The notes under the pieces: generated by a model | What the model was told of the DNA's origin: nothing | Seen by the model: the letters and a program-made list of their open reading frames with translations, nothing else | Database searches by the model: none | Part shown: in pieces, positions 1,734-34,496 of the stretch | Position numbering within the stretch: position 1 is the first letter of the stretch | Layout of the letters: each line of letters opens with the position of its first letter | Virus genome (UHGV): UHGV-0390443 | Reading direction: 5' to 3' (one strand) | DNA from: a virus | DNA length: 39,252 bases | Made by a program: the position numbers and the translations under genes

Positions 1734-1753
1734 AATCATATTTTTCAGTAAGT

Positions 1754-1779: not shown

Positions 1780-1790
1780 TGCCTGCGCAA

Positions 1791-1867: not shown

Positions 1868-1886
1868 CAGACCGAGGTGACAAGTT

Positions 1887-14512: not shown

Positions 14513-14531
14513 AAGGCCGCGAAAGCGGCCT
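14513..14531 (-). terminator. Putative terminator for the convergent minus-strand gene
   Basis: AGGCCGC-GAAA-GCGGCCT; minus-strand downstream TGTTTTTAAC. Confidence 0.5.
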
Positions 14532-14543
14532 GTGACATGTCAC
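14532..14543. repeat. 12-bp perfect palindrome GTGACATGTCAC (copy 1 of 3; others at 31882..31893 with one mismatch and 34147..34158)
   Basis: Exact string seen three times, with shared 14-bp context CGTGACATGTCACA in two copies. Confidence 0.6.
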
Positions 14544-14544
14544 G

Positions 14545-14994
14545 CTACTTGCGAAATCTTTCTTTACCCTTCCAGCCAGTAGATGTTAGTTCAGGATGAA
14601 TGGTTCCCAATATAAAGCCAACCATAGCGGAGCGAGGATCTTCTATTTTATCCGTTAATTCTTCGGCATAACTCACAGGCAACCAAGCAACAAGATCACC
14701 AATCCTCAGCTTTGGTCCTTTGCTGTAAGATGAATCGGCAATAACAAAAAATCCACCATCAGCTGAGCACACCTTCAGCATTGCCCTTTGTCTTCCAGAA
14801 TCCAGCAAAACTGGCTGTTCCCCACTGGGACCAGGTATGATGATGGCTGGCATTGGTTTATTGGCTGAAAGGCTTGTGTCAAGATACTTACACGCATACT
14901 CAAAAGCTGAAAAGTTATCCTTAAAGATAAGAGGTTGAATTTTATTGCTAACCTCCTTACCACCGATTAATCTGTTGATCATCTTCTTGAACAT
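14545..14994 (-). CDS. Hypothetical cytoplasmic protein (about 149 aa)
   Basis: ORF track 14545..15003; ATG 14994 preferred (RBS AGGTGA, spacing 5). Confidence 0.5.
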   Translation of the reverse strand: MFKKMINRLIGGKEVSNKIQPLIFKDNFSAFEYACKYLDTSLSANKPMPAIIIPGPSGEQPVLLDSGRQRAMLKVCSADGGFFVIADSSYSKGPKLRIGDLVAWLPVSYAEELTDKIEDPRSAMVGFILGTIHPELTSTGWKGKERFRK

Positions 14995-15006
14995 AAAGGT
15001 CACCTA

Positions 15007-15447
15007 ATGATTAAGCCGATGCACGCTATTACAGCTACCGTTTTGTTTATCCTACCAATTTTTTCGTTTGCAAACGACATATGTTTTAAGAATTTAATAA
15101 ATGAGGATATGTGTGCACATGCAAACAAAATTGCATCAGAAGCAGGAAAGTCACTTCCCATAAAATTGAATGATAATATGTCTATTGTTTCAATAAATGC
15201 AATACTAAACAAACTTTTAGTTGTAGCGCATCTTAATTACAACAACAGCTATTTATCAAAAGTTTATAATGGTGATGTAACCTTAGAAAATAAATTAAAG
15301 AGTGTAATGCGAAATTATTCAAAATCGAGCATTTGCTCCAACAGGCAAATAAAAGCATTTATTCACCTTGGCGGAGAGATTGAGTATAGGTATGTATTTA
15401 GTGATGGCAATATATTTGATACATACGCCATCACTAATTGTGAATAG
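15007..15447 (+). CDS. Hypothetical secreted protein with N-terminal signal peptide (about 146 aa, 4 Cys in mature part)
   Basis: MIKPMHAITATVLFILPIFSFA then NDICF...; very AT-rich codon usage; abuts the internal virion protein gene. Confidence 0.5.
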   Translation: MIKPMHAITATVLFILPIFSFANDICFKNLINEDMCAHANKIASEAGKSLPIKLNDNMSIVSINAILNKLLVVAHLNYNNSYLSKVYNGDVTLENKLKSVMRNYSKSSICSNRQIKAFIHLGGEIEYRYVFSDGNIFDTYAITNCE

Positions 15448-18400
15448 CTATTTCATCTGCTCTTCAACTTTATTTAGTAACGGTGATATCGCCCACAGGT
15501 TCTGAAAAGGTAGCATTTTACGGACCGCGTGGGTTTGCTGGCTGTCAAATTCTCCGTTAAGTACACCATTCGCAACCGTCGCGGCATCACCGCCAAGATC
15601 AAAGGTAGGACCAAGTAAAGCACCAATAGCATTACGACTCTGAAACCTTGATACCGGAGGCGCACCAAACATCGCGCCAAGACCAAACCTACCGCCGCTT
15701 ATGTTCTCAACGGTATTCAGCGGCTCAGAGAGCCAGCCAAGCATTCCGCCCCGGTCGATCCCCTCTTTCACAAGGTTATTCCAGCTGTAGTCGATATCGC
15801 GACCGCTTAACTTCTGTTTCATCATATAGACCATTGAGCCAAGCGCAATCGTGCCAAGCGCACCAAGATAGAATGCAGCATCGCCCTGCTGGATACCAGA
15901 TACTAGCACCCTGTTATGCTGTGCGAAGATAAACGTTTTGAACTGCGTGATCATCTTCCAGCCTTCTTTACTAAAAAACAGCGGTGTATCACCTACGCCA
16001 GGCGTTACAATCACTGAGTCTACATCTTTCAGCACTGCAGACTGGAAAATCTCTCTAGCGAAACGGTCATCCCACAGATGACTATGCCCGGTTAACAGCC
16101 CGTCCATATCCTCTCCGTGCTTCCCGAATTGCTCCCCGATTCGGCGCAGAACATCTTCATTGATGCCGACCTGTGCCATCTTCCGCATTTCACTTTTGGA
16201 GAGCGTGCCACCAGCAGAAACTTGGCGAGCCGCGTCAAGTATCCTCGACTGCACTATCATCCCGGACCATGATTTAAGTGCGCTGTTCCACTGATTCATC
16301 AGCGTCCAGTTACCGAATTTCTGCGTCATCCAGTTCAGACCTCGCTCAGCGGCGCTTCTCCGGCTATAGGGGTCAGTAAGATCCGCTATAGCCTTTGTAC
16401 GCGTAGACAGGACATAATCAAGCCCAACGGCCATTTCTCGCAAATCCCTGGTTGCAATTTTCACTGAGTCCATATTTTTAAGCATGCTTACCATTGGTCC
16501 GAGAGATTTTCTCAGGCCATGCTGCATCATCGGTCGCATCAGATCAGTTGCAGCGGAGACAGTCATTCCACCAAGCAAACGGAGGAAGTTAATATTCCTA
16601 GCAACTCGCCCGGCACGAACAAAGAAACTGCGTGGATCTTGAGGTGCACCGTAAGTACCAAGCAGTCGATCACGCATAGCCGTAATATCCCTAATATCAG
16701 CCTCCCGTTGCTTCTCAAGAACTGCACGTCGTTTAGGTGTTTTAGCCTCTTTTATTAGCCGGGTATATTCCTCACTAACCTGACGGATTTGCTCCCCCAT
16801 ATCTTTACGGCCAAACTGCGCAGTCAGCTCAATTTCTGGTGCCACCTGCCGGAGATAACTTTCCATAATGTAGTTAACATCTGATTCAAGAAAATCTTCT
16901 ATACGCTCATCAGGAATAAGCAGCGTTCTGCTTTTAGTGAAACCAGCCCGACCAACGAGTCTCTCTGGGACAATATCGGCTGGTACAAGCCCGGAAGGTG
17001 CGCCTATTATTTTATTCACGATCTCGTCAGCAGCGTCCTCTGCTTCCTCTCGGGATAGAGGCTCCATCTGCTTCAGTGCTCGTTCGCGGCTTGCATTCAG
17101 CCTTGTGGTTGAATTTGCCCGTTTTTGCAGTCGGCGAAGCTCAGAACGATATTTCCGTGGATTATCCAGCAACTCCATATGGCGCTGATAGACAGGAAGC
17201 TCACTCTTTGCCTGCGCTATATCATCAAGGCGTGTTTTAAGGTCAGAGCTTTCTTTCATCATTCTTGCCTGAAGTTTTTCTGATGAAGTCTCGGCCAACT
17301 CTTTTTCTATTCTTGTAAGACGCGCCTGTGTGTCAGTCTCCTGAGATATAAGCTTATTTCGTTTATCCAGTTCTTCCATGAGTAGAATTTTTTTACCAGA
17401 CCATTTCTCCGCTTCAGCGATTTCACTAGCGAGAGCATCAGCGCGCGGTGCCGATTCCTCTGCAGTTTTTAGCAATGAATTTATCCTTTCAATTCGCTGA
17501 CCTGCTTTGTCAGCACCTTTGGCACTAATCCCTTGTATCCAGTTGGCAATTCGCCCTCTGAATTCAGTGCGGTCGGAAAGTATCTTATCGAACTTATAAA
17601 TGCGGGGAAGATAACTTTTCGCCGTCACGACATCGATATCCTCAGGAAGGATCCCCAGTTCCTGCATACGGGCTTTTGTGGTCTCGAAAATGGGGCGGAT
17701 TCTGGCGGCTGCTTGTGAAACCTCAGGAATATCACTCTGATCACCACGGCGCATAGCCATGCCAACAGCTTCATTGAAATCAATAAAGCTCATCCTCTTC
17801 ACGCCGCGGGCGCTAACAGATTTGCTGTACTGCTGGTAAGCATCACGAGTGGCTTCCATCTGCTTATAAAGCATGGCGTCGTATTGCTTAATCTTAGTCT
17901 CGACTGCCGTAAACGTAGCCAACCCCTCATCATTTTTGGCGAAGAAATAGTTATTTTCGGCAAGCTGCTGGTTAATCTGACGGGAGACAAGAGATGGTGA
18001 TTGAGCCAAGCGGCCAGCAGGAGTGACACTCAACGTTTTGTTAGCAAGTCCAAGTCCAGCGAGCTGTTCCTGATCGAGTGTGGTATTGAAAACCTGAGCT
18101 GCACCAATGCTTTGAGGAGAATCCATACCTCGCAAATGATTACCTACTGAGTTAACCACTGCCTCGCGCGCGCTAGGTCCAGCAAGTAGCTGTGCACCAG
18201 CACCAAGGATCCCACCAACGAGAGCATCAACAACAACGTTCGATACGCTCTCCATCGGTGAGCGAGCTTCCTGAGTGGCCTGTAATGCGGCTTCTGATAC
18301 TCCCCCACCAGCAGCATTCGCTAGGGCAAAACGCCCTGCCGTCTCAGCAATACTTCCTCCACGCGCTACCGCCCCTACAGGGATGAACATTGCAGCCACA

Positions 18401-18837
18401 TTAACCGGGTCTATCATTCCCATTGCTAAGCTTGAAATAGTACCAGCACCCCCCATTTCAGATAGATATTCTCTATCTGTTCTTTGCTTATCGATTCGAT
18501 GTTTAATTGCCATTGTTTCTTCATGCGAACCGGAGTTGATAAACGAATCTGCAAAATCTTCATAGCCTTTAATATCTGCTGCATCGTTATCAAATGGGTT
18601 ATATCCTTCAACCCTGTCAAACTGACTGAAAGGAGCACTGGCAATAAAGCTACCCAGCGTGTTATCTATACGAAATGCTGCTTGTCTAGACCTTTGAACG
18701 CGTTGATCACTGGTAAATGGGTTCACAGCAGAAAGCAAAGAAGGTGTTTCCATATAGAAATTACTGTCATCAGGTGCTGCTATTTGCTGAATATCCTCGC
18801 CAAGCAACTCTTTAGGATCCTGTTCATATATCGGCAT
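15448..18837 (-). CDS. Large internal virion / ejection protein (T7 gp16-like position)
   Basis: 1129 aa, coiled-coil-rich, last gene of T7-like tail-tube/core block. Confidence 0.7.
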   Translation of the reverse strand: MPIYEQDPKELLGEDIQQIAAPDDSNFYMETPSLLSAVNPFTSDQRVQRSRQAAFRIDNTLGSFIASAPFSQFDRVEGYNPFDNDAADIKGYEDFADSFINSGSHEETMAIKHRIDKQRTDREYLSEMGGAGTISSLAMGMIDPVNVAAMFIPVGAVARGGSIAETAGRFALANAAGGGVSEAALQATQEARSPMESVSNVVVDALVGGILGAGAQLLAGPSAREAVVNSVGNHLRGMDSPQSIGAAQVFNTTLDQEQLAGLGLANKTLSVTPAGRLAQSPSLVSRQINQQLAENNYFFAKNDEGLATFTAVETKIKQYDAMLYKQMEATRDAYQQYSKSVSARGVKRMSFIDFNEAVGMAMRRGDQSDIPEVSQAAARIRPIFETTKARMQELGILPEDIDVVTAKSYLPRIYKFDKILSDRTEFRGRIANWIQGISAKGADKAGQRIERINSLLKTAEESAPRADALASEIAEAEKWSGKKILLMEELDKRNKLISQETDTQARLTRIEKELAETSSEKLQARMMKESSDLKTRLDDIAQAKSELPVYQRHMELLDNPRKYRSELRRLQKRANSTTRLNASRERALKQMEPLSREEAEDAADEIVNKIIGAPSGLVPADIVPERLVGRAGFTKSRTLLIPDERIEDFLESDVNYIMESYLRQVAPEIELTAQFGRKDMGEQIRQVSEEYTRLIKEAKTPKRRAVLEKQREADIRDITAMRDRLLGTYGAPQDPRSFFVRAGRVARNINFLRLLGGMTVSAATDLMRPMMQHGLRKSLGPMVSMLKNMDSVKIATRDLREMAVGLDYVLSTRTKAIADLTDPYSRRSAAERGLNWMTQKFGNWTLMNQWNSALKSWSGMIVQSRILDAARQVSAGGTLSKSEMRKMAQVGINEDVLRRIGEQFGKHGEDMDGLLTGHSHLWDDRFAREIFQSAVLKDVDSVIVTPGVGDTPLFFSKEGWKMITQFKTFIFAQHNRVLVSGIQQGDAAFYLGALGTIALGSMVYMMKQKLSGRDIDYSWNNLVKEGIDRGGMLGWLSEPLNTVENISGGRFGLGAMFGAPPVSRFQSRNAIGALLGPTFDLGGDAATVANGVLNGEFDSQQTHAVRKMLPFQNLWAISPLLNKVEEQMK

Positions 18838-21584
18838 TATTTGCCCCCTGCGTATATATTGCTCGGAAGGTAATTGGCTGAACCATAACCGAATGGTTTG
18901 GTCAGATCTGGAGGAGTATATCCATCTTTATTGCTGAACTGCGGCAGCGGATTGCCTTCTCTCCGCACTCTAGCCTCATCAACACGCTGTTGCTGTAACT
19001 GAATGGTTTGCCTGTACATTGGAGATGTCAGCTGATCCGGCTTGAAACGAACAGGGAGACCATTTTCTCCAATATAATTTCTCGGTTCTATCGCTCCGTT
19101 TGCGTCAGGCTGTAAAACCATAACAGCATAACTCCTATCCCTTGCCGTAAGGCCATCAGAAACAAGTATTAAGTCCGTATCACTGCGAGGACCGCCAAAG
19201 GATTTTGATTTAAGCTCGCGTTTTTCCTGCTCCCACTGCCCCTGTATCCAGTTACCAGCACCATTATTTACTCCGTACAATGCCTCAGGTGCATACTTCA
19301 TAACCTCTGCTTTGCCATTAACCGTAGAAACTCCCCAGGTGGTTCTGATCATGGCATTGGTCATTTTCTCAGCCTGTTCTGCATCGCCACCTGTCTGTAC
19401 AAAGTTAGCATCGTAAATTGTCTGGTAATCTCGCTGATAGGCCGCATTTGATTTTCCTGGATCGGTAATATCCGGAGACCACGAACCAAAGGAAGTCAGA
19501 CTGCTGGCGTTATTTTGTGCAGCAGTTGCCCTCGCCGCGACATATTTTTTGTCTCGCATGGCAGTGGAAAGCATCTGTTTCATTCGGTCATCCTGTTGGA
19601 ACACCTGGCTGTAAGCCATATCAACAGCCTTATCCTCCGGCACGCCAGCGCGGGAATAATCGTAAACCTTGCCGTAAAATGCCATCGTACTTTTATCAAG
19701 TGTTGCCGCTGCCGCCGGATTATTATCGAATAACTGACCGTAGAATTTTGCCATCGGGACAACCAGCGCAGGATCTCTTGATGTTGCTCCACTGTTAAGC
19801 ATTGTTTTAACCTGAGTTGGTATCATGCCGCTTTTAGTTGTGACGGTGACCAGTGTATTGATGCTCTGCGGATCAGATATGGAAAACGAAGGCGCGATAT
19901 CCTGCGCGAAATAACGGTCTACCGCTGCCTGATTGTTTTTGTCGTTCGGGTCCAGCGGGAAGTTATTTTGCATTGAAGACACGAACCTGTTTCTTCCCTG
20001 CTGAATCTCCCACTCCCTATCCATCTCTTTAAATTTGGCCTGCATTTTCTCCCAGCGTTGCTGGTTAGCAGCAAATCCAGGAGCGTTTGGATCCTGTGGA
20101 CGTAAACGTTCAAGAATGTCTTGTCGTCCTTCTGGAGTGAGGTCTTTAGCGGCACCAATGACACCTCCATATTGTATCTGCGCCTGCATATCCTTCCACT
20201 TCATAGCGCCAATGCGCGGACCATTGGCCCGGATAAAATCGTCCTCAGAAGGTAACTTCTCAGGTTTCAATCCTTCATCAAGGGCTGAATATGCATCTTT
20301 AACTACGGTGCTAAGCTGGTCCGCATACTGCTGGCGGTACTGATTTCTCAGCTCATTAGCCTGCCTCAATGCCTGTATTTGCATTTGAGGGCTCATAGCA
20401 TCAAATGCCGCATTGCCCGTATAACGCTTAGGTGAATCAAGGTTAGTTAGACCAAGGGCTGCCGAGATACCAGTTTCAAGCTGTTCGGTGCTATAAGGCA
20501 TACTGCCATTTTCGTGTTTAATAATCCCAGCACATAAAGCAGCTAGTGTCTTTGGGTTAGAGATATCAAGCTGATCATTCTCCCCAACACCAAGCTCACC
20601 ACACAATGCCCTAATATAAGCATCAGTATTATTACCATCACTAGCCGGAGCATAGCGATTAACAATCTCGCTAACGGTGTCATAGCCTTGACGCTGGTAA
20701 GACAACATATTTTTACCCAACGCGCGGATTCCATGCTCAGGGGTAGCAAACGTTGCAAAACGTCCATCGCTACCGATCTGACCTTCCCACGGGTTAGATT
20801 TGCTCGCTTCAATATTACCAGGGTTATTATTACGTAAACCACGAGCATCCAATGAATTACCATGTGATATTGCACGACTCACACCACCAAGATCCCCTGG
20901 CTCTCCATTAACCTGAAGAAACTCGTTGTATTTTTGAGCGATATTTCCTATCCATGCTTGCTGCCCCATTTCTTCCTTGAGCTGAGTTTTCTGCTGAACA
21001 CGCCACTCATCAGGAAGCCCATGCGCATCAGCGTATTGATCAATAGATTCAAATCGCTGCTTGGCTAAATCGACAAATGCTTGGTTATCGCTATATAGCC
21101 CCGCAGACTGAGTGACAGCCAATGCATTTCCTGACAAATACGTTTGATCTTGGAATTGCTGAAACTGCCCAACTTCATATCGACGTGCCTGATTGTAATA
21201 AGACTGCATAGACTGCTGGAGTTGAAAGGATAATTTATTCCTTTCCTCACTTTCAGGGATTGAGCCTAATAATGCCTGAGCCCTTTCCTGCATATTTTTC
21301 ATAACAGCGTCACTCTGACCAAGAGCGTTTTTACCCTGTTTAGAAATCAGCCCATTTTCAGGGTTGTTAATCTGGTCATCTGCAAATTGGTTAAATTGCA
21401 GTAACGCCTCCTGGGCCATAGCAACATTCGCTTTCTGCCTGGCTTCACCATATGCCACCGCATACTGATCTGCGACATTCGCCAGCACCTGACCTGCTTG
21501 AGGAACATCGAAGGTCTGAAAACCACCGGTTTGCACACCACGACTTTGCACCTGGCGTCCGGATGTAGTAGGAACAACAGGCAT
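18837..21584 (-). CDS. Internal virion / ejection protein (T7 gp15-like position) with conserved RNNNPGNI motif region
   Basis: 915 aa; segment ARGLRNNNPGNIEASKSNPWEGQIGSDGRFATFATPEHGIRALGKNM; start overlaps stop of upstream gene. Confidence 0.7.
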   Translation of the reverse strand: MPVVPTTSGRQVQSRGVQTGGFQTFDVPQAGQVLANVADQYAVAYGEARQKANVAMAQEALLQFNQFADDQINNPENGLISKQGKNALGQSDAVMKNMQERAQALLGSIPESEERNKLSFQLQQSMQSYYNQARRYEVGQFQQFQDQTYLSGNALAVTQSAGLYSDNQAFVDLAKQRFESIDQYADAHGLPDEWRVQQKTQLKEEMGQQAWIGNIAQKYNEFLQVNGEPGDLGGVSRAISHGNSLDARGLRNNNPGNIEASKSNPWEGQIGSDGRFATFATPEHGIRALGKNMLSYQRQGYDTVSEIVNRYAPASDGNNTDAYIRALCGELGVGENDQLDISNPKTLAALCAGIIKHENGSMPYSTEQLETGISAALGLTNLDSPKRYTGNAAFDAMSPQMQIQALRQANELRNQYRQQYADQLSTVVKDAYSALDEGLKPEKLPSEDDFIRANGPRIGAMKWKDMQAQIQYGGVIGAAKDLTPEGRQDILERLRPQDPNAPGFAANQQRWEKMQAKFKEMDREWEIQQGRNRFVSSMQNNFPLDPNDKNNQAAVDRYFAQDIAPSFSISDPQSINTLVTVTTKSGMIPTQVKTMLNSGATSRDPALVVPMAKFYGQLFDNNPAAAATLDKSTMAFYGKVYDYSRAGVPEDKAVDMAYSQVFQQDDRMKQMLSTAMRDKKYVAARATAAQNNASSLTSFGSWSPDITDPGKSNAAYQRDYQTIYDANFVQTGGDAEQAEKMTNAMIRTTWGVSTVNGKAEVMKYAPEALYGVNNGAGNWIQGQWEQEKRELKSKSFGGPRSDTDLILVSDGLTARDRSYAVMVLQPDANGAIEPRNYIGENGLPVRFKPDQLTSPMYRQTIQLQQQRVDEARVRREGNPLPQFSNKDGYTPPDLTKPFGYGSANYLPSNIYAGGK

Positions 21585-26028: not shown

Positions 26029-26072
26029 TCCTGCAATAAAGGGGCCGAAGCCCCTTGTCGGATTCGCGAGGC

Positions 26073-26417: not shown

Positions 26418-26418
26418 C

Positions 26419-26856: not shown

Positions 26857-26907
26857 CTTCTTTCTCCATTAGTGGGTCTGTTACGACCCACAGGTTAATA
26901 ACAGGCG

Positions 26908-27900: not shown

Positions 27901-27908
27901 TTCCTCTC

Positions 27909-28610
27909 TTATTTGCCATAGAGCACTTCGGCCGCACTACGCTGGCCTTCATTACCACCGGTGACCATGCCATCTTCAGACATCGCCTTTCCGATTTTCA
28001 CGAACGTTTTGACCAGATCAGGGTGATTACCCAGTCCGGTGGTGTTCAGATATTCTTTGAGTTCAGGTGTCCCGAACTGGTCAAGCGCACGCTGTGCGGC
28101 GCTAAGGTTAGAAATCAACTTGTCGCCACCGATTTCTTTGTCAGCTTTTACATCCGCAGCCCACTGCTCGGTTGTTTTCTGCCAGGCTTCTGCCTGGCGC
28201 TGCTGAACACCTGCCAGAATCTTCGGATAAGCATCAACCAGCTTTTGCGCTTGCTCGTTGGTCAGGTTTAGTTCTCGCGCCACCGGCTCGAATTCCTTCA
28301 ACGCTTCTGTATCCAGCTCTACGCCTTCGGCAGCCTGAAACTCGTACTTCTCAGGCGCACCCTCTGGTTTATCGCCGCCCTTTTTTTCATCCTGCTTATC
28401 GTTTTCAGGCTTTTTGTCATCAGCAGGTTTATCGCCATCAGCAACAGGTTGTGGCTTATCACCTTCCGGTTGTGATGGATCACCAACTGGAGCAGGGTTA
28501 TCACCTGCAGGCGCTGACGGTTCTGACGCAGCCGGAGCTGCTCCACCATCGACTGGTTGCTCATTGCAAAGACGGCGATACAGCAAACGCTCAAATAAAT
28601 TCATGATCAC
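27909..28610 (-). CDS. Scaffolding protein
   Basis: 233 aa, low-complexity Pro/Asp/Lys-rich N-terminal half, helical C-terminal half; between portal and capsid genes. Confidence 0.7.
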   Translation of the reverse strand: MIMNLFERLLYRRLCNEQPVDGGAAPAASEPSAPAGDNPAPVGDPSQPEGDKPQPVADGDKPADDKKPENDKQDEKKGGDKPEGAPEKYEFQAAEGVELDTEALKEFEPVARELNLTNEQAQKLVDAYPKILAGVQQRQAEAWQKTTEQWAADVKADKEIGGDKLISNLSAAQRALDQFGTPELKEYLNTTGLGNHPDLVKTFVKIGKAMSEDGMVTGGNEGQRSAAEVLYGK

Positions 28611-28903
28611 TCCTGTTCACTGGCCTCTTTGGCCATCTTCAAATACTGTTCAGGGCAATGCGCCATAACGCGCTGAAACAGTTCCAGCGCCAGATTGCGT
28701 TGCCCCTCATTAAATGCCATTGCCATAGCGTCCATCGGTGAGATAGCGGAAAACACACGGCCTTTCTCCAGCACCGACCAGACAACGCGACGCCCCTGTT
28801 CACTGCTCATGACAAAGCGAATGTCATCAATTTCACGCTGTGCCATGTCACATTGCTTACGGGCGTTTTCTTCTTTCAGTTGATCATCTTCGTAATCTGT
28901 CAT
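28607..28903 (-). CDS. Hypothetical head assembly protein
   Basis: 98 aa, coupled between portal and scaffold genes. Confidence 0.5.
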   Translation of the reverse strand: MTDYEDDQLKEENARKQCDMAQREIDDIRFVMSSEQGRRVVWSVLEKGRVFSAISPMDAMAMAFNEGQRNLALELFQRVMAHCPEQYLKMAKEASEQE

Positions 28904-30579
28904 TGTGATTGCCCACCCTGACCACTAACTGCATTCGCCATAGCTGACAAAACACTCGGCTCCGAAGTTTTAGCTTCGCTTAGCGTCTTGGCACCCTGTG
29001 CCGCCGCCATCCCCATCGCCATCATTTGTTGCTGCTGTTGTTGCTGTGCCCGTTGCTGGCGAGCCTGCTCAACCTGTTCCTGCGGAACAATGACGGTTGG
29101 AGACACTCCGGACATATCAGCGAATGCATCGATCGCCTGATCAACGTTGAGTTTGTCGAGAGCTTCTGGTTTCGCTTGCGCAAGTTGACCAATGAAGTTA
29201 ACCGTGGACGCCAGACTGGACAGGCCGATAGACTTCTGCGCCTGAGCCATGACGGAAATGTATTCGACCTTCAGGGGCATGCCTTCCATCGCGTCAGGCG
29301 GTGGCGGCAACATGTTTTTACGCACCATCATCGAGAAAGTGCGGTCAATGAGAGGATTAAGACATTCGTCGTTCAGACGCTCCAGAACTGGCCCCAACAT
29401 CAGAAGCTTTTCTTCTTTCATTTCGATCACTGCTTCAACAGGCATCGAGCGGGTATTGATGTTCTGCAACATCATGAACAGATCGACAAAGTAGGCGCTG
29501 TTAATGATTTGGCGGGTGTCCTGAATGTCTGCTACCAGATCTGCTGTACTGGGGTTAACCAGATAAGCAGGCCTGAAACCATCCTGACCAGTAATCTGAT
29601 CGATATACGTGATGTCGCCAGGAAGAAGGGAGGCGCGCTGATTCTTGAGGGAAGTCGGAGCAACCATCGGCGGATTGGTGGCTTTATCAATCAACTGCGA
29701 CTTGCGCTTCTGGAGAAGCTGCAATGCCTTAACAGGTCCAAGCGCCAGCATACCAGGGCATGATGATCCATAAACATCTTCGCCGTTAACTTCCCAGCGC
29801 GGAGCCATAATTGGAAACTCATCGAATCCGGACTCACGCAACAACTTGTCGTTATCGCCACCAACCTCGTAATAAACCGATTTGAATGGCTTGTTCTTGC
29901 TATCCAGCTTCGATGTATCGCGGTCAATGTTCGGGTAAACCGAATGCATCACTTCAATCCACTTCTCGTAGGTGCCGCTTTCCCACATGCTTTTTACGGA
30001 TTCGCTGACGTTATTTAGCCCGAACTCCTGAACAAGCTGACGAACAGTCATAGAGAACTTGCGAAAACAGGTGTCCACACTGCCACGAGGTGAGTTAGCC
30101 AGGTAGTAACTGCCTATAGGGAATGGCATTGTGCGAATGATGTCCTCGTCATCCTCCAGCACCGCCATTGCACCAGTGCTGTATGTGCCGAGGCTTCCGT
30201 ATAACTGCGGCAGCGACTGATAGAGATTCGACTTATTGAACATATCGTTCATGCGGTTCTGCACCGCCTCAAGCCACAACTTAACAGGGCCATAATCCAT
30301 CATTTCAGGATCTGGCGTAGCCAGGCGAAACCACGGACGCGCGGGGCTTGTGATGCCTGACATCATGCCGCTGGCGAGAGTGCGCGCCGCCATAGTCCCG
30401 GTCGAATCAATAATGCGTGTATTCCGTCGATCGTTACGGTTGACCTCAGAAGTCAGAAAGCGGGAACCACGCGGGTTGATGTAATCACTCAACTCGCGCC
30501 AGTGCGGCTCGAACGACTGACGCTCGCTTTCAAGTTGTGCGAACTGTTTGTTCAATCGCTCTTTAGTTGTTTCCGCCAT
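28900..30579 (-). CDS. Portal protein
   Basis: 559 aa directly upstream of scaffold/capsid; Gln-rich acidic C-terminus; position after terminase. Confidence 0.8.
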   Translation of the reverse strand: MAETTKERLNKQFAQLESERQSFEPHWRELSDYINPRGSRFLTSEVNRNDRRNTRIIDSTGTMAARTLASGMMSGITSPARPWFRLATPDPEMMDYGPVKLWLEAVQNRMNDMFNKSNLYQSLPQLYGSLGTYSTGAMAVLEDDEDIIRTMPFPIGSYYLANSPRGSVDTCFRKFSMTVRQLVQEFGLNNVSESVKSMWESGTYEKWIEVMHSVYPNIDRDTSKLDSKNKPFKSVYYEVGGDNDKLLRESGFDEFPIMAPRWEVNGEDVYGSSCPGMLALGPVKALQLLQKRKSQLIDKATNPPMVAPTSLKNQRASLLPGDITYIDQITGQDGFRPAYLVNPSTADLVADIQDTRQIINSAYFVDLFMMLQNINTRSMPVEAVIEMKEEKLLMLGPVLERLNDECLNPLIDRTFSMMVRKNMLPPPPDAMEGMPLKVEYISVMAQAQKSIGLSSLASTVNFIGQLAQAKPEALDKLNVDQAIDAFADMSGVSPTVIVPQEQVEQARQQRAQQQQQQQMMAMGMAAAQGAKTLSEAKTSEPSVLSAMANAVSGQGGQSQ

Positions 30580-30593
30580 TTCAATGACTCCGG

Positions 30594-30800
30594 TTACTGA
30601 CCAAGCAGCGTTTTACCGCTGGTATTAGCGGTTGATGTGTCGCCCTGAGAACCGGTAAGCAGCGTAGAACTACGACCAGCAGCAGCGCGACGGCGACGTG
30701 TTTCTTCGTCGCGGGCATCAACAACGGCGGCATCCTGCTCCTGTGGTGCTGCCTGAACTTCTGGTGTTGCAGGCACTGATGGTGAGCTACCCATGCACAT
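30594..30800 (-). CDS. Small hypothetical protein upstream of portal
   Basis: 68-aa ORF, RBS GGAG spacing 7, Ala/Thr-rich. Confidence 0.4.
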   Translation of the reverse strand: MCMGSSPSVPATPEVQAAPQEQDAAVVDARDEETRRRRAAAGRSSTLLTGSQGDTSTANTSGKTLLGQ

Positions 30801-30868
30801 ATCAATGACTCCGTACGCAATTAAATTATTACCAATTTAACCACATATGATTTATTTATCGTAGATAG

Positions 30869-30905
30869 TTGACATTTAACGCACAAATTATTACCTTTCA
30901 GGTAA
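30869..30905 (+). promoter_or_regulatory. Putative promoter (TTGACA 30869..30874) with operator TTACCTTTCAGGTAA (30891..30905), facing tRNA and gp49-like gene
   Basis: -35 hexamer; dyad overlaps expected -10 position at 17-bp spacing. Confidence 0.5.
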
Positions 30906-31227
30906 GCAAAGGGTTCATTCCGGTTATTAACCTGACTGGCTTGTCGTTAAATTGAACAGGTGGAGTGAGCTTTTATTTTGAGCAGTACGGCGTATGGCAC
31001 ATGCGCCGATAGCGGTCTGGATACGTTTAAGGGGCACCCTCCCTTGCTCGGGCAAACGAACCAGGTAGCCGGAATGTGCAAGTCGAGCGGTTTTATTCCG
31101 CGCACGGGGATTCACCATCCCGGCGATTCGGTGTGACGCCTCGGAAGAGACGAGGGTACAACGATGAGAGCATTTATGGAGCCGCGACAAAGTGTGGCGC
31201 CTTAACAGGCTAAGTGCTCTCAGCGTT

Positions 31228-31304
31228 GTGGCATTAGCTCAGTTGGACAGAGCAACCGCCTTCTAAGCGGTTGGTCGCAGGTTCGAATCCTGCATGCCAC
31301 GCCA
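31228..31304 (+). tRNA. tRNA-Arg (anticodon UCU), with encoded CCA
   Basis: Manually folded cloverleaf: acceptor GTGGCAT/ATGCCAC, D-stem GCTC/GAGC, anticodon stem ACCGC/GCGGT with loop CTTCTAA, T-stem GCAGG/CCTGC with TTCGAAT loop. Confidence 0.85.
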
Positions 31305-31347
31305 GAATCACGCCTAAGGACCGTGATGCCAGAAGTTCCAGGTGCTT

Positions 31348-31390
31348 GGCGGTGATAGTTTCCCTTGAAGGACTATCACCGCCCTTTTTA
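31348..31390 (+). terminator. Strong rho-independent terminator after tRNA
   Basis: 12-bp stem GGCGGTGATAGT/ACTATCACCGCC followed by CTTTTTAC. Confidence 0.75.
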
Positions 31391-31467
31391 CAGCAGGACG
31401 CCATTGCGATGACTTCATGCTGTAAACCCGTACAGCCACGGAAGGCATAACTCATTGCTTCCAGTTC

Positions 31468-31491
31468 GCCCGGTTCGCCGGGCATTTTTTT
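31468..31491 (+). terminator. Second rho-independent terminator upstream of gp49-like gene
   Basis: GCCCGG-TTCG-CCGGGC followed by ATTTTTTT. Confidence 0.7.
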
Positions 31492-31502
31492 AAGGTGAGA
31501 TT

Positions 31503-31877
31503 ATGAACGACCAGCAAATCGAAAAAGAAATCGTTGAGAAAGGCAAAACGGCACCGCGCGTAACACCTGAGAAAATTGAAGGCCTCATTTGCAGTGAGCA
31601 TTTTTTCACTGCTGCGCAGGGTGATCACCAGGCTAAAGAAGATGACCTTATTTATAATCCGGAGCCTTATGTCGAAGCCACCCCTGATGCTCTGCACCTT
31701 CTCACTTTCTGCGTACTGGTGCTGAAGAATGGCTTCACCGTCACCGGAGAGAGTTCCTGTGCAAGTCCGGAAAATTTTGATGCAGAAATTGGTCGGAAGA
31801 TTGCCCGGCAGAATGCTGTAAACAAAATCTGGATGCTCGAAGGTTACTTGCTGAAGCAGAAGTTAAGCGAGCAATAA
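31503..31877 (+). CDS. N4 gp49 / Sf6 gp66-family phage protein (moron between terminase and portal)
   Basis: 124 aa; RBS AAGGTGAG; family assignment from remembered similarity, unverified. Confidence 0.6.
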   Translation: MNDQQIEKEIVEKGKTAPRVTPEKIEGLICSEHFFTAAQGDHQAKEDDLIYNPEPYVEATPDALHLLTFCVLVLKNGFTVTGESSCASPENFDAEIGRKIARQNAVNKIWMLEGYLLKQKLSEQ

Positions 31878-31895
31878 CACCGTGGCATGTCACAA

Positions 31896-31925
31896 ACAGC
31901 CAGCCTATGAGCTGGCTTTGTTTTA
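31896..31925 (+). terminator. Rho-independent terminator after gp49-like gene
   Basis: Stem AGCCAGC/GCTGGCT followed by TTGTTTTAT. Confidence 0.65.
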
Positions 31926-31967
31926 TCCTCACCAGAGGATATCAACGACATTATCCCCACCAGCGGA

Positions 31968-33443
31968 TTAAGCATAAGGGTCATAATCCGTTATGGCCCT
32001 TCCCTGCTGGCTTTGCTGTCCTGGTATATTTATGCGTTTCGAGACCGGGAAAGCAAACGTCAGCAGTAGCGCATCTCCTTTACCAGGAGAACGCCCAAGA
32101 CGCTCTTTGATATCTTCCTTCGGTTCGATAACGATTTTACCGTCCACACGAACTTTGTACTCTGCCGCCGACAGGTCGTCTGCAGTTTCCTGGTCATCCA
32201 GCATGCCGCCCAGCCTCAGCCATGTCTTACATGAGTTGAACATCTCCCCACGCTTGTTAAGCATCTGCGGGTCAGTGGACGCACCGCCGAACGGAACAAG
32301 TTGCCATGTACGTCCCCAGCCATCACCGATTGACTTCAAACCGGTTCCATAACCGAAGTCGATGAACACCGCGTCAGCCTGATACTGGTCTTCAAAGTCA
32401 GCGATACGCTTCGCCATAATCAGATCGTCGGTGGTCTTGTTACCAGTCCATAGCACCTTACTGTGCAGCCCCTGCCGCAGGTATATCACAGCGTCATCAA
32501 CGCCGGAGTATGCCGGGTCAACGCCGATTATCACCGGAGCATGTGCAACCTGCGCAGCGGTTACCACCCGTTTCATTGCCTCGTCAGTAAGGCCGGTAGG
32601 GATAAACTGCAATTCAGATGCATCCGGGAATATGCCGCGCACACGGATTTTAACGAAGTCGCTGTCTTCCCCGTAGTCATCAACCCATTTCTGCAACTGC
32701 TGTTTGTTAGTGCCTTCCACCGTCCGGCTGTCAATCTGCGCAGTTTTCCAGCGGTGTTTATATTTGCGGAAACATTCGCGGAAACGCCCGGTGTTACGTG
32801 TAGGGTTTCCGAATGCCACCCAGATAATCTCAGTGTCTTCGTCCGTCAGCGCACCCTCTGCTACCTCCCACACCAGATCGGCAATGTTGGATGCTTCGTC
32901 GAATACCACGATGATGCGTTTGCGCTCGTTGTGTAGTCCGGCGAATGCCTCAGTGTTGTGCTCAGACCAGGGGATTGCGTCAGCTCGCCACCGCTTGTCG
33001 TGCCCAGGGTCATTGCTGTACATCGCGGTAGCGGTACAGGTAAACCAGTCTTTCGTGATAGCAAGGTTCGACCACTTGATAATTTCCGGCCAGGTCTTCG
33101 TTCGTAGCTGGTTGTCGGTGTTGGCGGTCACCACGACCTTACAATCCTCGCAAGTGGACATGCCCCAGTTGATCAGCATTGAGATGAATGCGGATTTACC
33201 AATACCGTGACCAGAAGCACGTGCCAGCATAAGCGGCTGATATCGCGTCTCTGGATTCTGCAGGTGATCACGTATCTCTCGGAACGCATCGGCCTGCCAC
33301 TGACGTGGACCGGTGGCATGTGCCAGTTCAGTACCCTCTTCCCCCCACGGGAACGCATAGAGGGCATAGCCAAGCGGATCGTGAGTGAACCCTGCAATAT
33401 CCTCGATTAACTGCTCTTCAGGAGATAATGCTGTATCTGTCAC
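31968..33443 (-). CDS. Terminase large subunit
   Basis: 491 aa; Walker A-like ARASGHGIGKS; nuclease-domain acidic residues in C-terminal half; overlaps small subunit gene. Confidence 0.9.
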   Translation of the reverse strand: MTDTALSPEEQLIEDIAGFTHDPLGYALYAFPWGEEGTELAHATGPRQWQADAFREIRDHLQNPETRYQPLMLARASGHGIGKSAFISMLINWGMSTCEDCKVVVTANTDNQLRTKTWPEIIKWSNLAITKDWFTCTATAMYSNDPGHDKRWRADAIPWSEHNTEAFAGLHNERKRIIVVFDEASNIADLVWEVAEGALTDEDTEIIWVAFGNPTRNTGRFRECFRKYKHRWKTAQIDSRTVEGTNKQQLQKWVDDYGEDSDFVKIRVRGIFPDASELQFIPTGLTDEAMKRVVTAAQVAHAPVIIGVDPAYSGVDDAVIYLRQGLHSKVLWTGNKTTDDLIMAKRIADFEDQYQADAVFIDFGYGTGLKSIGDGWGRTWQLVPFGGASTDPQMLNKRGEMFNSCKTWLRLGGMLDDQETADDLSAAEYKVRVDGKIVIEPKEDIKERLGRSPGKGDALLLTFAFPVSKRINIPGQQSQQGRAITDYDPYA

Positions 33444-34036
33444 TGATTGCCATCCTGACGTTCTTTCAGTCTCTTCCTGGCTGCCGCTATGCGATCAGCA
33501 ATTGTCACATTCACATTAACATCCAGGCGTTCTTTGAATGCGTTGACGTCGACGTGCTTACCAATCAGTTCGAGGTTCTTCACCTTGTCAGGCCATTTAA
33601 TTTTTTTGAGGATTGTCTCTATCGAATCCTCGTTCATGTTCATGATGGTCGATGACAGATCAAAGCCACTAAGCGTAGTGCGCCAGATTTTCGGCCACTC
33701 ACGGATTGGTTTAAGGCTCCCATCGTCGTTGAGGATATCGATCACGTCCATCTGGTCGATCTCCACCAGGCGCATGAGAACGTAATCAGCACTGACGCGC
33801 ATTCGTTTGTTGCGCTCCTCCATCAACTCGGCAATCCGTTTTTGAATGCGTTCATCGCGCATCATGACACTGGCTTTAACTGCCGCTGTATTTGGGGAGA
33901 ATCCTGCGTTAATCGCTGCCTGAGTCTGGTTTTCAGGCGTTTTGATGTATGACTGGCAATAAGCCTCCTGCATTGCTGTGAGCGGCTTAAATTGCGTTGA
34001 TTTGCGTTTATAGGTTTTAGGTTCAGCAGGCATCAT
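33440..34036 (-). CDS. Terminase small subunit
   Basis: ORF track 33440..34114; start at MMPAEPKTYKRK (34036) preferred because a minus-strand terminator hairpin lies at 34078..34105 and the conserved LTAMQEAYCQSY region begins ~19 aa later. Confidence 0.7.
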   Translation of the reverse strand: MMPAEPKTYKRKSTQFKPLTAMQEAYCQSYIKTPENQTQAAINAGFSPNTAAVKASVMMRDERIQKRIAELMEERNKRMRVSADYVLMRLVEIDQMDVIDILNDDGSLKPIREWPKIWRTTLSGFDLSSTIMNMNEDSIETILKKIKWPDKVKNLELIGKHVDVNAFKERLDVNVNVTIADRIAAARKRLKERQDGNQ

Positions 34037-34077
34037 AACCACCGTGGTAATAGTTACCGTTGTGGTAATAGTACCAT

Positions 34078-34105
34078 GCAAAATAAAGCCGCCATAGTTG
34101 GCGGC
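34078..34105 (-). terminator. Rho-independent terminator between early genes and the late operon
   Basis: Stem GCCGCCA/TGGCGGC with loop; minus-strand downstream TTTATTTTG. Confidence 0.6.
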
Positions 34106-34154
34106 AGTATTCAAAACACATCAAATTCATCATGCATAATCTACTCGTGACATG

Positions 34155-34496
34155 TCACACTATTAATTTCGTTTCATGCCAGCCTTTAGTCACCCAGCAT
34201 TGCGAGTCACCATTGCACGGGCATGAATTAACTGGAACTCTCTCGCCGCACTTACCGCAACGTTTTCTGCTGATCGATTTTATACGCCCGCGCACGCGTG
34301 CATCATCCTGGCGGATCAGTAACGCTATATACTCACCAAATTCGTAAGGCGCACGCCCGGGGCGACGCGTGGCACAGTTACGCTCCAGCATTTCAATTTC
34401 CTGAGCATCAAGCACAATTTCCAGCTTACGCACACCAGATGCAGCTTGTCTGGCTCTCTGAGCGGCTTTGCGCTCTGCTGCTGATTTAGCCATCAA
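34155..34496 (-). CDS. Small DNA-binding-like protein (RHH-like N-terminus plus Cys-rich C-terminus); candidate late-gene regulator
   Basis: 113 aa; MMAKSAAERKAAQRARQAASGVRKLEIVLDAQEIEMLERN then RKRCGKCGERVPVNSCPCNGDSQCW; last gene before late-operon terminator. Confidence 0.45.
   Translation of the reverse strand: MMAKSAAERKAAQRARQAASGVRKLEIVLDAQEIEMLERNCATRRPGRAPYEFGEYIALLIRQDDARVRGRIKSISRKRCGKCGERVPVNSCPCNGDSQCWVTKGWHETKLIV

What the first reader, a model, noticed from the sequence alone, without database searches (positions are those of the whole stretch)
14532..34158. Three copies of the palindrome GTGACATGTCAC at operon boundaries
Perfect 12-bp palindromes occur at 14532..14543 and 34147..34158, with a one-mismatch copy (GTGGCATGTCAC) at 31882..31893. 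Two copies share the 14-bp context CGTGACATGTCACA. All three lie at gene 3' ends next to terminators: between convergent moron genes, after the gp49-like gene, and before the late-operon terminator. The 4-bp spacer distinguishes the site from CRP sites (TGTGA-N6-TCACA). Could be a regulator binding site, RNA processing site or recombination hotspot.
Basis: seen in the sequence. Interest (0 to 1): 0.45.

Follow-up and report, generated by a model that had tools for sequence, protein, structure and literature searches.

The report
Operator-like dyad of uncharacterised phage regulator
The repeated 12-bp palindrome is real and conserved across phage genera, and it is most likely the DNA recognition site of a small, never-studied phage protein whose own gene ends inside one copy, marking the ends of the phage's transcription units.

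Summary
GTGACATGTCAC is perfect at 14532 and 34147 and has one mismatch at 31882. A fourth one-mismatch copy at 28840 lies in coding sequence. The window is a phiV10/epsilon15-like podophage with its late genes on the minus strand.

The perfect 12-mer sits at the same three syntenic places in epsilon15, SPN1S, Tyrion and HEMP4, while the flanks diverge. Site A overlaps the TGA stop codon of the epsilon15-gp49/N15-gp46-like gene (PHROG 536; no Pfam family, no literature). That linkage holds in 76 of 78 protein-seeded relatives and in other phage types.

Genomes carrying this gene family have 2-3 GTGAC-NN-GTCAC dyads against 0.00-0.07 expected. The centre varies by clade: AT in enterobacterial podophages and ZF40, TG in N15-like elements, AC or GC in a Vibrio phage. 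Lambda and P22 have none.

The best reading is the cognate DNA site of this protein. The protein looks like a basic, RHH-like N-terminus joined to a TraR/DksA-like zinc ribbon (hhalign 78%). Sites B and C abut intrinsic terminators at operon ends, but they are optional. No binding has been shown, and the effect on transcription is only inferred.

The parts
34147..34158 (.). Site A: perfect dyad GTGACATGTCAC. Its nt 2-4 on the minus strand are the TGA stop of the gp49/gp46-like gene.
   Evidence: It is perfect in 76 of 78 terL-seeded relatives. The same register (G-TGA-C) is kept in N15-like elements with the variant GTGACTGGTCAC.
31882..31893 (.). Site B: GTGGCATGTCAC (one mismatch), between the PF13876 cargo gene and the terminator, convergent with terL.
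   Evidence: The syntenic site is perfect in phiV10, epsilon15, Tyrion, SPN1S, Kp4865-1 and HEMP4. It is perfect in 60 of 79 protein-seeded relatives, has one mismatch in 9 and is absent in 10.
14532..14543 (.). Site C: perfect dyad, 1 nt after the stop of the last late-operon ORF and abutting the minus-strand terminator.
   Evidence: It is syntenic in phiV10, epsilon15, Tyrion, SPN1S, TL-2011b and HEMP4. It is present in only 8 of 28 evaluable close relatives of this sub-lineage.
28840..28851 (.). One-mismatch copy GTGCCATGTCAC inside the phiV10p08-like coding sequence. Probably incidental.
   Evidence: The same one-mismatch copy is present in E. coli relatives but not in epsilon15 or Tyrion.
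34155..34493 (-). Gene for the epsilon15 gp49 / N15 gp46-like protein (112 aa from ATG; PHROG 536), the proposed binder of the dyad.
   Evidence: It has no Pfam, NCBIfam or PDB match as a single sequence. The deep profile hits the TraR/DksA family.
34088..34105 (-). Intrinsic terminator between the regulator gene and terS, ending the early-right operon.
   Evidence: The same position is annotated as a terminator in epsilon15.
34035..34069 (.). Two epsilon15-type prophage-repressor operators (ATTACC-N5-GGTAAT-like) upstream of terS. They mark the start of the packaging operon and are a different motif from the dyad.
   Evidence: 15 hits against 1.2 expected in the window. The epsilon15 annotation has a repressor site at 12..27.
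31898..31917 (+). Intrinsic terminator 4 nt downstream of site B.
   Evidence: It is annotated as a terminator in phiV10.
31503..31877 (+). Cargo gene in the B slot (PF13876, N4 gp49/Sf6 gp66 family). It is replaced by at least six unrelated genes in relatives.
14514..14531 (-). Intrinsic terminator abutting site C, at the end of the structural operon.
   Evidence: It is annotated as a terminator in phiV10.
14545..15003 (-). Last late-operon ORF (152 aa, PHROG 9944, unknown function). This is a variable cassette upstream of site C.

Best explanation
GTGAC-N2-GTCAC (here GTGACATGTCAC) is the cognate recognition dyad of the phage's own epsilon15-gp49/N15-gp46-family protein. This is a roughly 112-aa protein that probably binds double-stranded DNA as a symmetric dimer.

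One copy is built into the 3' end of the protein's own gene and overlaps its stop codon. In this phage group two further copies sit just upstream of the intrinsic terminators that close transcription units.

The protein appears to combine an arginine-rich, ribbon-helix-helix-like N-terminal part with a C-terminal helix plus zinc ribbon related to TraR/DksA, proteins that bind RNA polymerase. I therefore think it acts on transcription complexes at these sites and tunes stopping or read-through between four kinds of unit: the early-right operon, the packaging operon, the structural operon and the cargo genes.

What is shown: the conservation, the enrichment, the co-variation with the protein clade, and the positions.

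What is inferred: that this protein is the binder, that the target is DNA rather than RNA, and any effect on termination.
For: 1. Conservation. The perfect 12-mer is at the same three syntenic places in epsilon15, Tyrion, SPN1S and HEMP4, and at two or three in phiV10, TL-2011b and Kp4865-1. The motif is 99-100% conserved against 50-71% in the 36-nt flanks.

2. Gene linkage. 43 motif-seeded sites have a gp49-like ORF ending in the dyad. This includes proteins only 46-55% identical and contigs without an epsilon15-type terminase, and what lies downstream is unrelated from case to case. Site A is perfect in 76 of 78 terL-seeded loci. The last residue is V, L, M or A, yet the last codon always ends in G.

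3. Enrichment specific to genomes with the gene. GTGACNNGTCAC occurs 2 times in the window, 3 in ZF40, 3 in N15 and 3 in Vibrio K303, against 0.00-0.07 expected. It occurs 0 times in lambda and P22. Single half-sites are not enriched.

4. Co-variation. N15-like elements use GTGACTGGTCAC, conserved at the stop codon and at two other syntenic places in relatives 69-76% identical. The Vibrio phage uses centres AC and GC. N15 and the epsilon15-like coliphages share a host, which argues for a phage-encoded specificity.

5. The protein. The family is small and phage-restricted, with 209 clusters among 1.84 billion proteins. The three best PDB sequence hits of the deep profile are all TraR/DksA-type, at E about 0.01. 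hhalign against the TraR family gives 78.5%, E 1.7e-5. There are weak RHH_5, RHH_1 and RepB-RCR_reg hits at residues about 29-49. Predicted secondary structure has the order gap-helix-helix-ribbon-helix.

6. Position. Repressor operators mark promoters downstream of A and B, so A, B and C are ends of transcription units.
Against: - No binding data exist. The pairing rests on co-occurrence and co-variation only.
- Sites B and C are dispensable. C is missing in 20 of 28 close relatives that mostly have an intact regulator. One lineage with a frameshifted regulator keeps a perfect B. Presence or absence therefore does not track the gene.
- Some family members lack a dyad at their stop codon: L030, L037, L105, the Yersinia phage and the Vibrio phage.
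- Unrelated Cro/YdaS-like genes also end in the dyad.
- The sites lie in transcribed regions, which fits RNA-level recognition equally well.
Confidence: 0.6

Rival explanations
1. The element works at the RNA level. The 12-mer is transcribed at the 3' end of three transcripts, immediately 5' of the terminator hairpin. There it is recognised as a small hairpin (4-bp stem, CNNG loop) or as a linear motif. The reader could be the arginine-rich N-terminus of the gp49-like protein or a host RNA-binding protein. The outcome would be control of termination, 3'-end stability or, in 5' leaders, translation.
For: - All sites in all lineages lie in transcribed regions rather than classical promoter positions.
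- At B and C the motif is 0-4 nt from the terminator stem.
- The two kinds of stem variant seen (GTGGCATGTCAC and GTGACATGTTAC) keep G-U pairing in the sense RNA, and the other variants fall in the would-be loop.
- The N-terminus (AERKAAQRARQ) resembles arginine-rich RNA-binding peptides.
- The Vibrio sites lie about 20 nt upstream of start codons.
Against: - The isolated hairpin is only -1.2 kcal/mol and no better than shuffles.
- The motif is conserved as a sequence with no compensatory changes.
- In N15 and the Vibrio phage the asymmetric centre points either way relative to transcription. That is expected for a symmetric DNA site but not for a specific RNA loop.
- Two stem variants are too few to carry weight, since about one in four would fit by chance.
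Confidence: 0.17
2. The element is a recombination junction. The dyad, with its adjacent terminator, is a short conserved linker at which related phages exchange cargo genes (morons), for example through the phage RecET system or because a bound protein stalls replication. Its conservation would reflect repeated use as a crossover point rather than regulation.
For: Homology breaks fall within a few nucleotides of the dyad in all three slots.
- At A the gene is conserved and the downstream DNA is unrelated.
- At B, terL, the terminator and the dyad are conserved, followed by at least six different cargo genes.
- At C, ten or more unrelated last genes precede a conserved dyad and terminator.
- Only about 80 bp around site C is shared with many relatives.
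Against: - 12 bp is very short for homologous exchange.
- The same dyad inside genes of ZF40 and N15 is not at mosaic boundaries.
- A clade-specific centre and the enrichment of a dyad rather than a direct repeat fit protein recognition.
- Any strongly selected short element flanked by free DNA will look like a boundary.
- This reading could be true in addition to the main one.
Confidence: 0.1
3. The element is a host transcription-factor site. A host dimeric regulator would bind the dyad. Candidates are a CRP-like or LacI/GalR-like protein, since the symmetric lac operator also has TGTGA-N4-TCACA.
For: The outer bases TGTGA..TCACA resemble CRP and lac half-sites. It is only a resemblance and was not tested.
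Against: - The flanking T/A is not conserved: C-dyad-A, T-dyad-G and A-dyad-A all occur.
- The dyad centre differs between N15-like and epsilon15-like phages of the same host.
- The dyad is absent from lambda and P22.
- The tight linkage to one phage gene has no explanation under this model.
Confidence: 0.05
4. The pattern is chance or simple shared ancestry, with no function.
For: Within the window alone the post-hoc probability is only about 0.02. Many relatives are about 98% identical, so identity there is uninformative.
Against: - The motif is perfectly conserved at about 77% overall nucleotide identity while the flanks diverge.
- It recurs in unrelated virion types: a myovirus, a siphovirus-plasmid and a Vibrio phage.
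- Shuffled-sequence expectations are at most 0.07.
Confidence: 0.02

Closest known systems
Ribbon-helix-helix phage and plasmid repressors with short palindromic operators (P22 Arc and Mnt, pMV158 CopG, omega)
   Same: It is a small protein with a basic N-terminal arm followed by a strand-helix-helix pattern. It would recognise a short symmetric DNA element present in a few copies per genome, one of them next to its own gene.
   Different: The RHH fold is not demonstrated here; there are only weak sub-threshold Pfam hits and a secondary-structure pattern. The sites are not in promoters but at gene 3' ends, next to terminators or inside genes. The protein carries an extra Cys-rich C-terminal module.
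TraR/DksA family (F-plasmid TraR, lambda Orf73), RNA polymerase secondary-channel regulators (PMC9239242, PMC6970531)
   Same: The C-terminal half (long helix, CxxC zinc ribbon, C-terminal helix) aligns with nearly the whole of TraR: hhalign 78%, and the three best PDB sequence hits are this family. Like TraR homologues, it is a small phage-encoded protein.
   Different: The N-terminal DxxDxA motif that reaches the polymerase active site is absent, and the helix is preceded by about 46 residues. The fourth zinc ligand is Thr (CxxC-16-CxxT). TraR proteins do not bind DNA, whereas this family is tied to a specific DNA dyad.
Lambda Q with its QBE at pR'-tR'
   Same: In epsilon15-like phages the regulator is the last gene of the early-right operon. 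Its presumed site lies immediately downstream of the gene, followed by an intrinsic terminator and the late (packaging) genes. A weak sigma-70-like match has its -35 hexamer in the dyad.
   Different: There is no sequence relationship to Q proteins. ZF40 and N15 carry the family alongside a true Q homologue. The promoter-like match is not conserved in variants where another ORF follows the dyad directly. Q sites are not palindromes.
RfaH with its ops element, and lambda N with boxB/nut: factors loaded on elongating polymerase at a short site within the transcription unit
   Same: It is a 12-nt element inside transcribed DNA, upstream of terminators, possibly read while the polymerase passes.
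   Different: This is purely an analogy. There is no homology and no evidence for loading onto the elongation complex. The ops element and boxB are not conserved dyads with variable centres.
Epsilon15-type prophage repressor operators (ATTACC-N5-GGTAAT)
   Same: They are also a dispersed dyad present at many places in the same genome, including just downstream of site A.
   Different: They have a different sequence, spacing and positions (promoters), and a known cognate HTH repressor. Searches show the two motif sets are separate.

Membership tests
TraR/DksA C4 zinc-finger family (PF01258) | N-terminal helix beginning with the conserved DxxDxA motif that reaches the RNA polymerase active site (PMC9239242) | tested here: not met
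   In the hhalign alignment TraR residue 6 pairs with residue 47 of the window protein (RAPYEF). There is no DxxDxA motif, and 46 residues precede the helix.
TraR/DksA C4 zinc-finger family (PF01258) | Globular domain with CxxC-17-CxxC zinc finger | tested here: inconclusive
   The window protein has C79xxC82-16-C99xxT102 plus C91 and C93. C79 and C82 are invariant and C99 nearly so in the family. PF01258 itself is not hit by any member. The profile hits YbiI and TraR at E about 0.01.
TraR/DksA C4 zinc-finger family (PF01258) | Overall profile similarity and a C-terminal helix | tested here: inconclusive
   hhalign probability is 77-78.5% over 55-56 columns against TraR, 13.6% against lambda Orf73 and 3.5% against DksA. 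A C-terminal helix is predicted at residues 100-111.
TraR/DksA C4 zinc-finger family (PF01258) | Binds the RNA polymerase secondary channel | not testable with these tools
   This needs a binding assay or a structure.
Ribbon-helix-helix DNA-binding proteins (Arc/MetJ/CopG) | Beta-alpha-alpha fold forming an intertwined dimer | tested here: inconclusive
Transcription-factor operator (cognate protein-site pair) | Site over-represented and conserved in genomes that encode the factor, and absent from those that do not | tested here: met
   In one search lambda and P22 have 0..
Transcription-factor operator (cognate protein-site pair) | Site sequence co-varies with the protein clade | tested here: met
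   The centre is AT for proteins 46-100% identical (Uetakeviruses, ZF40, Yersinia phage), TG for N15-like (about 35%) and AC or GC for the Vibrio phage (about 31%).
Transcription-factor operator (cognate protein-site pair) | Direct binding of the protein to the site | not testable with these tools
   EMSA, footprinting or ChIP is required.
Lambda-type Q antitermination module | Q-family protein, with its binding element inside a late promoter followed by a terminator | tested here: not met
   There is no Q-family Pfam hit. ZF40 and N15 have separate Q homologues. The promoter-like match at site A scores only 9 of 12 and is not conserved.
CRP binding site | TGTGA-N6-TCACA spacing | tested here: not met
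   The spacing here is N4 and the flanking T/A is not conserved.
Self-sufficient structured RNA element | Stable fold with compensatory base changes | tested here: not met
   The hairpin is -1.2 kcal/mol with z about 0. The motif is invariant with no compensatory pairs.

The most novel reading that the evidence does not exclude
The gp49/gp46 family would be a DNA-site-tethered relative of TraR. It would be a small protein that recognises the GTGAC-N2-GTCAC dyad, on duplex DNA or on the exposed non-template strand, inside transcription units. From there it would engage RNA polymerase through its TraR-like zinc-ribbon module and switch nearby intrinsic terminators between stop and read-through. 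One copy at its own stop codon would give built-in feedback. That would be a new class of site-specific elongation and termination regulator, distinct from Q, N and RfaH.
Probability: 0.15. Interest if true: 0.85.

Novelty: new variant of a known kind. Interest (0 to 1): 0.6.

Why it matters
Late-gene and operon-boundary control in epsilon15/phiV10-type phages is essentially unstudied. phiV10 is used for E. coli O157 detection, and these phages are common serotype-converting prophages.

This analysis links a conserved but uncharacterised core gene (PHROG 536, 'hypothetical protein' in every source) to a precise DNA motif. That gives a directly testable protein-site pair spanning podophages, a myophage, N15-type plasmid-prophages and Vibrio phages.

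Two features are unusual for phage regulators and suggest control exerted at the ends of transcription units rather than at promoters:
- an operator fused to the regulator's own stop codon, with further copies abutting terminators;
- a possible TraR-like polymerase-binding module joined to a DNA-binding part.

The dyad also marks the slots where cargo genes are exchanged, which helps annotation and engineering of these phages.

Tried and rejected
1. Prophage-repressor operator. Rejected: the epsilon15-type operators are ATTACC-N5-GGTAAT and form a separate, strongly enriched set.

2. Site A as the -35 of a conserved late promoter (a pR'-tR' analogue). The scan gives GTGACA-18-CATGAT, and epsilon15 has a better -10. 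The arrangement is lost where an ORF or a LexA-controlled moron follows the dyad directly, so it is not general.

3. gp49-like as the Q equivalent. Rejected as a general statement, because ZF40 and N15 have their own Q homologues.

4. Co-loss of the regulator with sites B and C. EC.W1-9 suggested it: a frameshifted gene, and B and C absent. The cross-tabulation did not support it.

5. 'Three sites per genome' as a rule. Site C is present in only 8 of 28 close relatives.

6. Stable RNA hairpin. Rejected.

8. Literature. There are no papers containing the sequence. Nothing was found on gp49 or gp46. The epsilon15 genome paper is not held.

9. Bias in the motif-seeded scan. Many of its matches are unrelated coding coincidences, such as Q933-type genes starting MRDMSQ and a conserved structural gene. 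I therefore used protein-seeded surveys for the frequencies.

Full report
OBSERVATION

The palindrome GTGACATGTCAC is perfect at 14532..14543 and 34147..34158. GTGGCATGTCAC is at 31882..31893. With at most one mismatch, 0.09 copies are expected and none of 100 shuffles reached four.

The shared 14-mer is real but lies on opposite strands at the two perfect sites. I also ran a post-hoc test that asks how often any 12-bp palindrome recurs in dinucleotide-preserving shuffles. It gives P about 0.02, or about 0.005 with a third near-copy. So the window alone is suggestive, not compelling.

WHAT THE WINDOW IS

It is a complete phiV10/epsilon15-like temperate podophage (Uetakevirus type), closest to Escherichia phage EC.W1-9, the O157 typing phages 9 and 10, and phiV10. 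The late genes run on the minus strand: terS from about 34114, terL at 33443..31968, then portal and onward to the ORF at 15003..14545.

Epsilon15-type prophage-repressor operators (ATTACC-N5-GGTAAT) are a different motif. They are strongly enriched here, with 15 hits against 1.2 expected. They occur upstream of terS (34035, 34053) and of the portal operon (30890). The three palindromes therefore do sit at ends of transcription units:
- Site A (34147) overlaps the TGA stop of the last early-right gene and lies 41 nt before the terminator 34105..34088.
- Site B (31882) lies between the stop of a PF13876 cargo gene and the terminator 31898..31917, convergent with terL.
- Site C (14532) lies 1 nt after the last late ORF and abuts the terminator 14531..14514.

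The fourth copy is inside a conserved coding sequence and is probably incidental.

CONSERVATION

The perfect 12-mer is at the same three syntenic positions in several genomes:
- Salmonella phages epsilon15 (about 77% nucleotide identity) and SPN1S
- Enterobacter phage Tyrion (its third copy spans the record junction)
- E. coli phage HEMP4

It is at two or three of these positions in phiV10 (whose A site reads GTGACATGTTAC across the record junction), TL-2011b and Klebsiella phage Kp4865-1.

When sequences are anchored on the motif, the majority-base fraction is 0.99-1.00 within it and 0.50-0.71 in the 36-nt flanks. Some of those rows came from a motif-seeded scan.

Protein-seeded surveys are less biased:

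| Site | Loci | Perfect | One mismatch | Absent |
|---|---|---|---|---|
| A | 78 | 76 | 2 | 0 |
| B | 79 | 60 | 9 | 10 |
| C | 28 evaluable close relatives of this sub-lineage | 8 | 0 | 20 |

Where C is absent, a different last gene joins the same terminator without the palindrome. So A is obligate, B is common and C is optional.

THE KEY LINK

Site A belongs to a gene, not to a boundary. A scan of viral contigs for the 14-mer returned 120 loci. In 43 of the sites found, a homologue of the 112-aa epsilon15 gp49/phiV10 p55 protein ends in the palindrome. In 38 of these the TGA stop is palindrome nt 2-4. This includes proteins only 46-55% identical and contigs without an epsilon15-type terminase.

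What follows the palindrome is unrelated from case to case: a terminator plus terS, an ORF starting 10 nt later, a LexA-box promoter with a umuD-like gene, and others. The last residue of the protein varies (V, L, M, A), yet the last codon always ends in G. The selection is therefore on the nucleotides.

The protein family is PHROG 536. It has no Pfam or NCBIfam family, no PDB relative by single-sequence search, and 'hypothetical protein' in all sources.

CO-VARIATION ACROSS PHAGE TYPES

The family also occurs in Pectobacterium myophage ZF40 (67% identity), Yersinia P2-like phages (about 40%), N15 and phiKO2 (about 35%), and Vibrio and Aeromonas phages (about 31%).

| Phage | Dyad | Copies | Location |
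|---|---|---|---|
| ZF40 | TGTGACATGTCACA | 3 | one 2 nt after the regulator's stop, two inside genes |
| N15 | GTGACTGGTCAC | 3, either orientation | one overlaps the TGA stop of gene 46 in the same register |
| Vibrio K303 | GTGACACGTCAC x2, GTGACGCGTCAC x1 | 3 | two about 20 nt upstream of start codons, one of them terS |
| Yersinia vB_YenM_42.18 | GTGACATGTCAC | 1 | not at the regulator's stop |
| Aeromonas 13AhydR10PP | degenerate (TGACATGGCAC) | - | stop-codon register kept |

All three N15 positions are conserved in N15-like elements whose protein is 69-76% identical.

GTGACNNGTCAC is expected 0.00-0.07 times in these genomes but occurs 2-3 times. Lambda and P22, which lack the family, have none. 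Single half-sites are not enriched. Because N15 and the coliphages of the epsilon15 group share a host, a clade-specific centre argues for a phage-encoded reader and against a host factor.

THE PROTEIN

An exhaustive profile search finds only 209 clusters among 1.84 billion proteins.

A 67-sequence alignment shows several conserved features:
- an arginine-rich N-terminus
- a conserved Gly
- a short hydrophobic segment followed by two helices
- an invariant CxxC with a further conserved Cys

Individual members give weak, sub-threshold matches to RHH_5, RHH_1 and RepB-RCR_reg at residues about 29-49.

The three best PDB sequence hits of the profile are all DksA/TraR-type zinc-finger proteins: YbiI at E 0.009, and TraR in RNA polymerase complexes at E 0.012-0.013. 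hhalign gives 77-78.5% probability over 55-56 columns that span nearly all of TraR. It gives low values for lambda Orf73 and DksA.

TraR homologues are small plasmid and phage proteins that bind the polymerase secondary channel. They are defined by an N-terminal DxxDxA motif, a CxxC-17-CxxC finger and a C-terminal helix (PMC9239242). Here the DxxDxA motif is absent, 46 residues precede the helix, and the finger is CxxC-16-CxxT. The protein is therefore not a bona fide TraR, though its C-terminal half probably shares that fold.

MECHANISM

Shown:
- a conserved dyad with fixed half-sites and a 2-bp centre
- its enrichment only where the gene family is present
- variation of the centre with the protein clade
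- its placement at the regulator's own stop codon and, in this phage group, 0-4 nt upstream of terminator stems at operon ends

Inferred: the protein binds the dyad on duplex DNA as a symmetric dimer. Through its TraR-like module or simply as an obstacle, it then alters what RNA polymerase does at these points, stopping or reading through between the early-right, packaging and structural operons and the cargo genes.

In other phage types the sites lie inside cII-like genes, at the ends of cro-like genes, in repA or in 5' leaders. That also fits action on elongating polymerase better than promoter occlusion. I put about 0.6-0.7 on 'cognate site of this protein family', and about 0.3 on the specific termination or read-through role.

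RIVALS

- RNA-level recognition is the main alternative. All sites are transcribed, the two stem variants keep G-U pairing, and the N-terminus looks like an arginine-rich motif. Against it, the hairpin is only -1.2 kcal/mol, there is no covariation, and asymmetric centres point both ways relative to transcription.
- A recombination-junction role fits the sharp homology breaks at the dyad in all three slots. It cannot explain the intragenic copies or the clade-specific centre, and it may be a consequence rather than the cause.
- A host-factor site and chance are unlikely.

WHAT DID NOT HOLD UP

- The idea that loss of the regulator goes with loss of B and C. EC.W1-9 has a 1-nt deletion that removes the Cys-rich domain and lacks B and C. 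This failed on cross-tabulation.
- The promoter-like match at site A, which is not conserved.
- The Q-equivalent idea, which fails because ZF40 and N15 have true Q homologues.

KNOWN OR NEW

No paper in the searchable library contains the sequence. I found nothing on epsilon15 gp49 or N15 gene 46, and the epsilon15 genome paper could not be read.

A regulator with a palindromic operator is a known kind of thing. The novel parts are this family, its dyad, the operator fused to the regulator's own stop codon, the terminator-adjacent copies and the possible TraR-like module. I rate it a new variant of a known kind, with interest 0.6. There is roughly a 15% chance that it is a new class of site-tethered polymerase regulator.

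Noticed in passing
window 1078..1868, 6874, 11908, 12288, 13329, 30890, 34035, 34053, 37913, 37975: Epsilon15-type repressor operators (ATTACC-N5-GGTAAT) are scattered over the whole genome, with 15 hits at up to 2 mismatches against 1.2 expected. They occur upstream of the packaging and portal operons. The prophage repressor therefore seems to control late promoters directly rather than through a cascade.
   Followed up: partly
window 33440..34114 (terS): The long terS ORF (TTG start at 34114, as annotated in phiV10) would contain the terminator 34105..34088 and both repressor operators. The real start is probably about 34033, giving 197 aa as annotated in TL-2011b and EC.W1-9.
   Followed up: partly
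L002 (EC.W1-9) 6170..6180; also L046, L204: A 1-nt deletion in an A-run frameshifts the gp49-like gene after about residue 76 and removes the Cys-rich domain. The same allele is in independent assemblies, so it is probably real. EC.W1-9 is a plaque-forming isolate, so the C-terminal module may be dispensable for lytic growth.
   Followed up: partly
L007, L011, L025, L036, L217 (Kp4865-1) just downstream of site A: In Klebsiella and Salmonella relatives, a TTGACT..TATACT promoter with a LexA box (TACTGT-N8-ACAGTA) and a umuD-like gene are inserted between the regulator gene and terS, directly after the dyad.
   Followed up: no
L206 (ZF40) 7622; L021, L030, L037, L056, L119: The dyad lies inside the 3' part of cII-like genes (protein motif RDMSHQ or CDMSQR). 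In L028, L039, L108 and L113 it overlaps the TGA stop of Cro/YdaS-like genes. This suggests that in lambdoid and ZF40-type phages the same factor acts in the cro-cII region.
   Followed up: partly
L012, L017, L022, L074, L115, L124: Q933/Q21-type antiterminator genes begin ATG-CGTGACATGTCAC-AG (MRDMSQ), so the 14-mer also occurs at the start of these Q genes. L074 also carries a gp49-like gene whose own site is GTGACCTGTCAC. I could not tell whether this is coincidence or function.
   Followed up: no
L207 (N15) 28550..28561: One N15 dyad lies in the intergenic leader upstream of the anti-repressor (immA) operon terminator, next to a TAAAAT -10-like hexamer. In a relative (L214) the dyad is extended to CCCC-GTGACTGGTCAC-GGGG. 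N15 gene 46 might therefore regulate the anti-repressor operon.
   Followed up: no
window 13610..13645 and 31348..31383: There are two unusually long perfect hairpins, with 15-bp and 14-bp stems. The first is inside the 5' end of ORF 13580..14446. The second is in the region where the epsilon15 record annotates an RNase III processing site.
   Followed up: no
L242-L258 and L268, 7-8 kb downstream of the 915-aa virion protein: A further dyad variant, GTGACCCGTCAC, recurs in 8 related contigs in what looks like coding sequence (context ttcgtaatctgcGTGACCCGTCACaggc). It was not examined.
   Followed up: no
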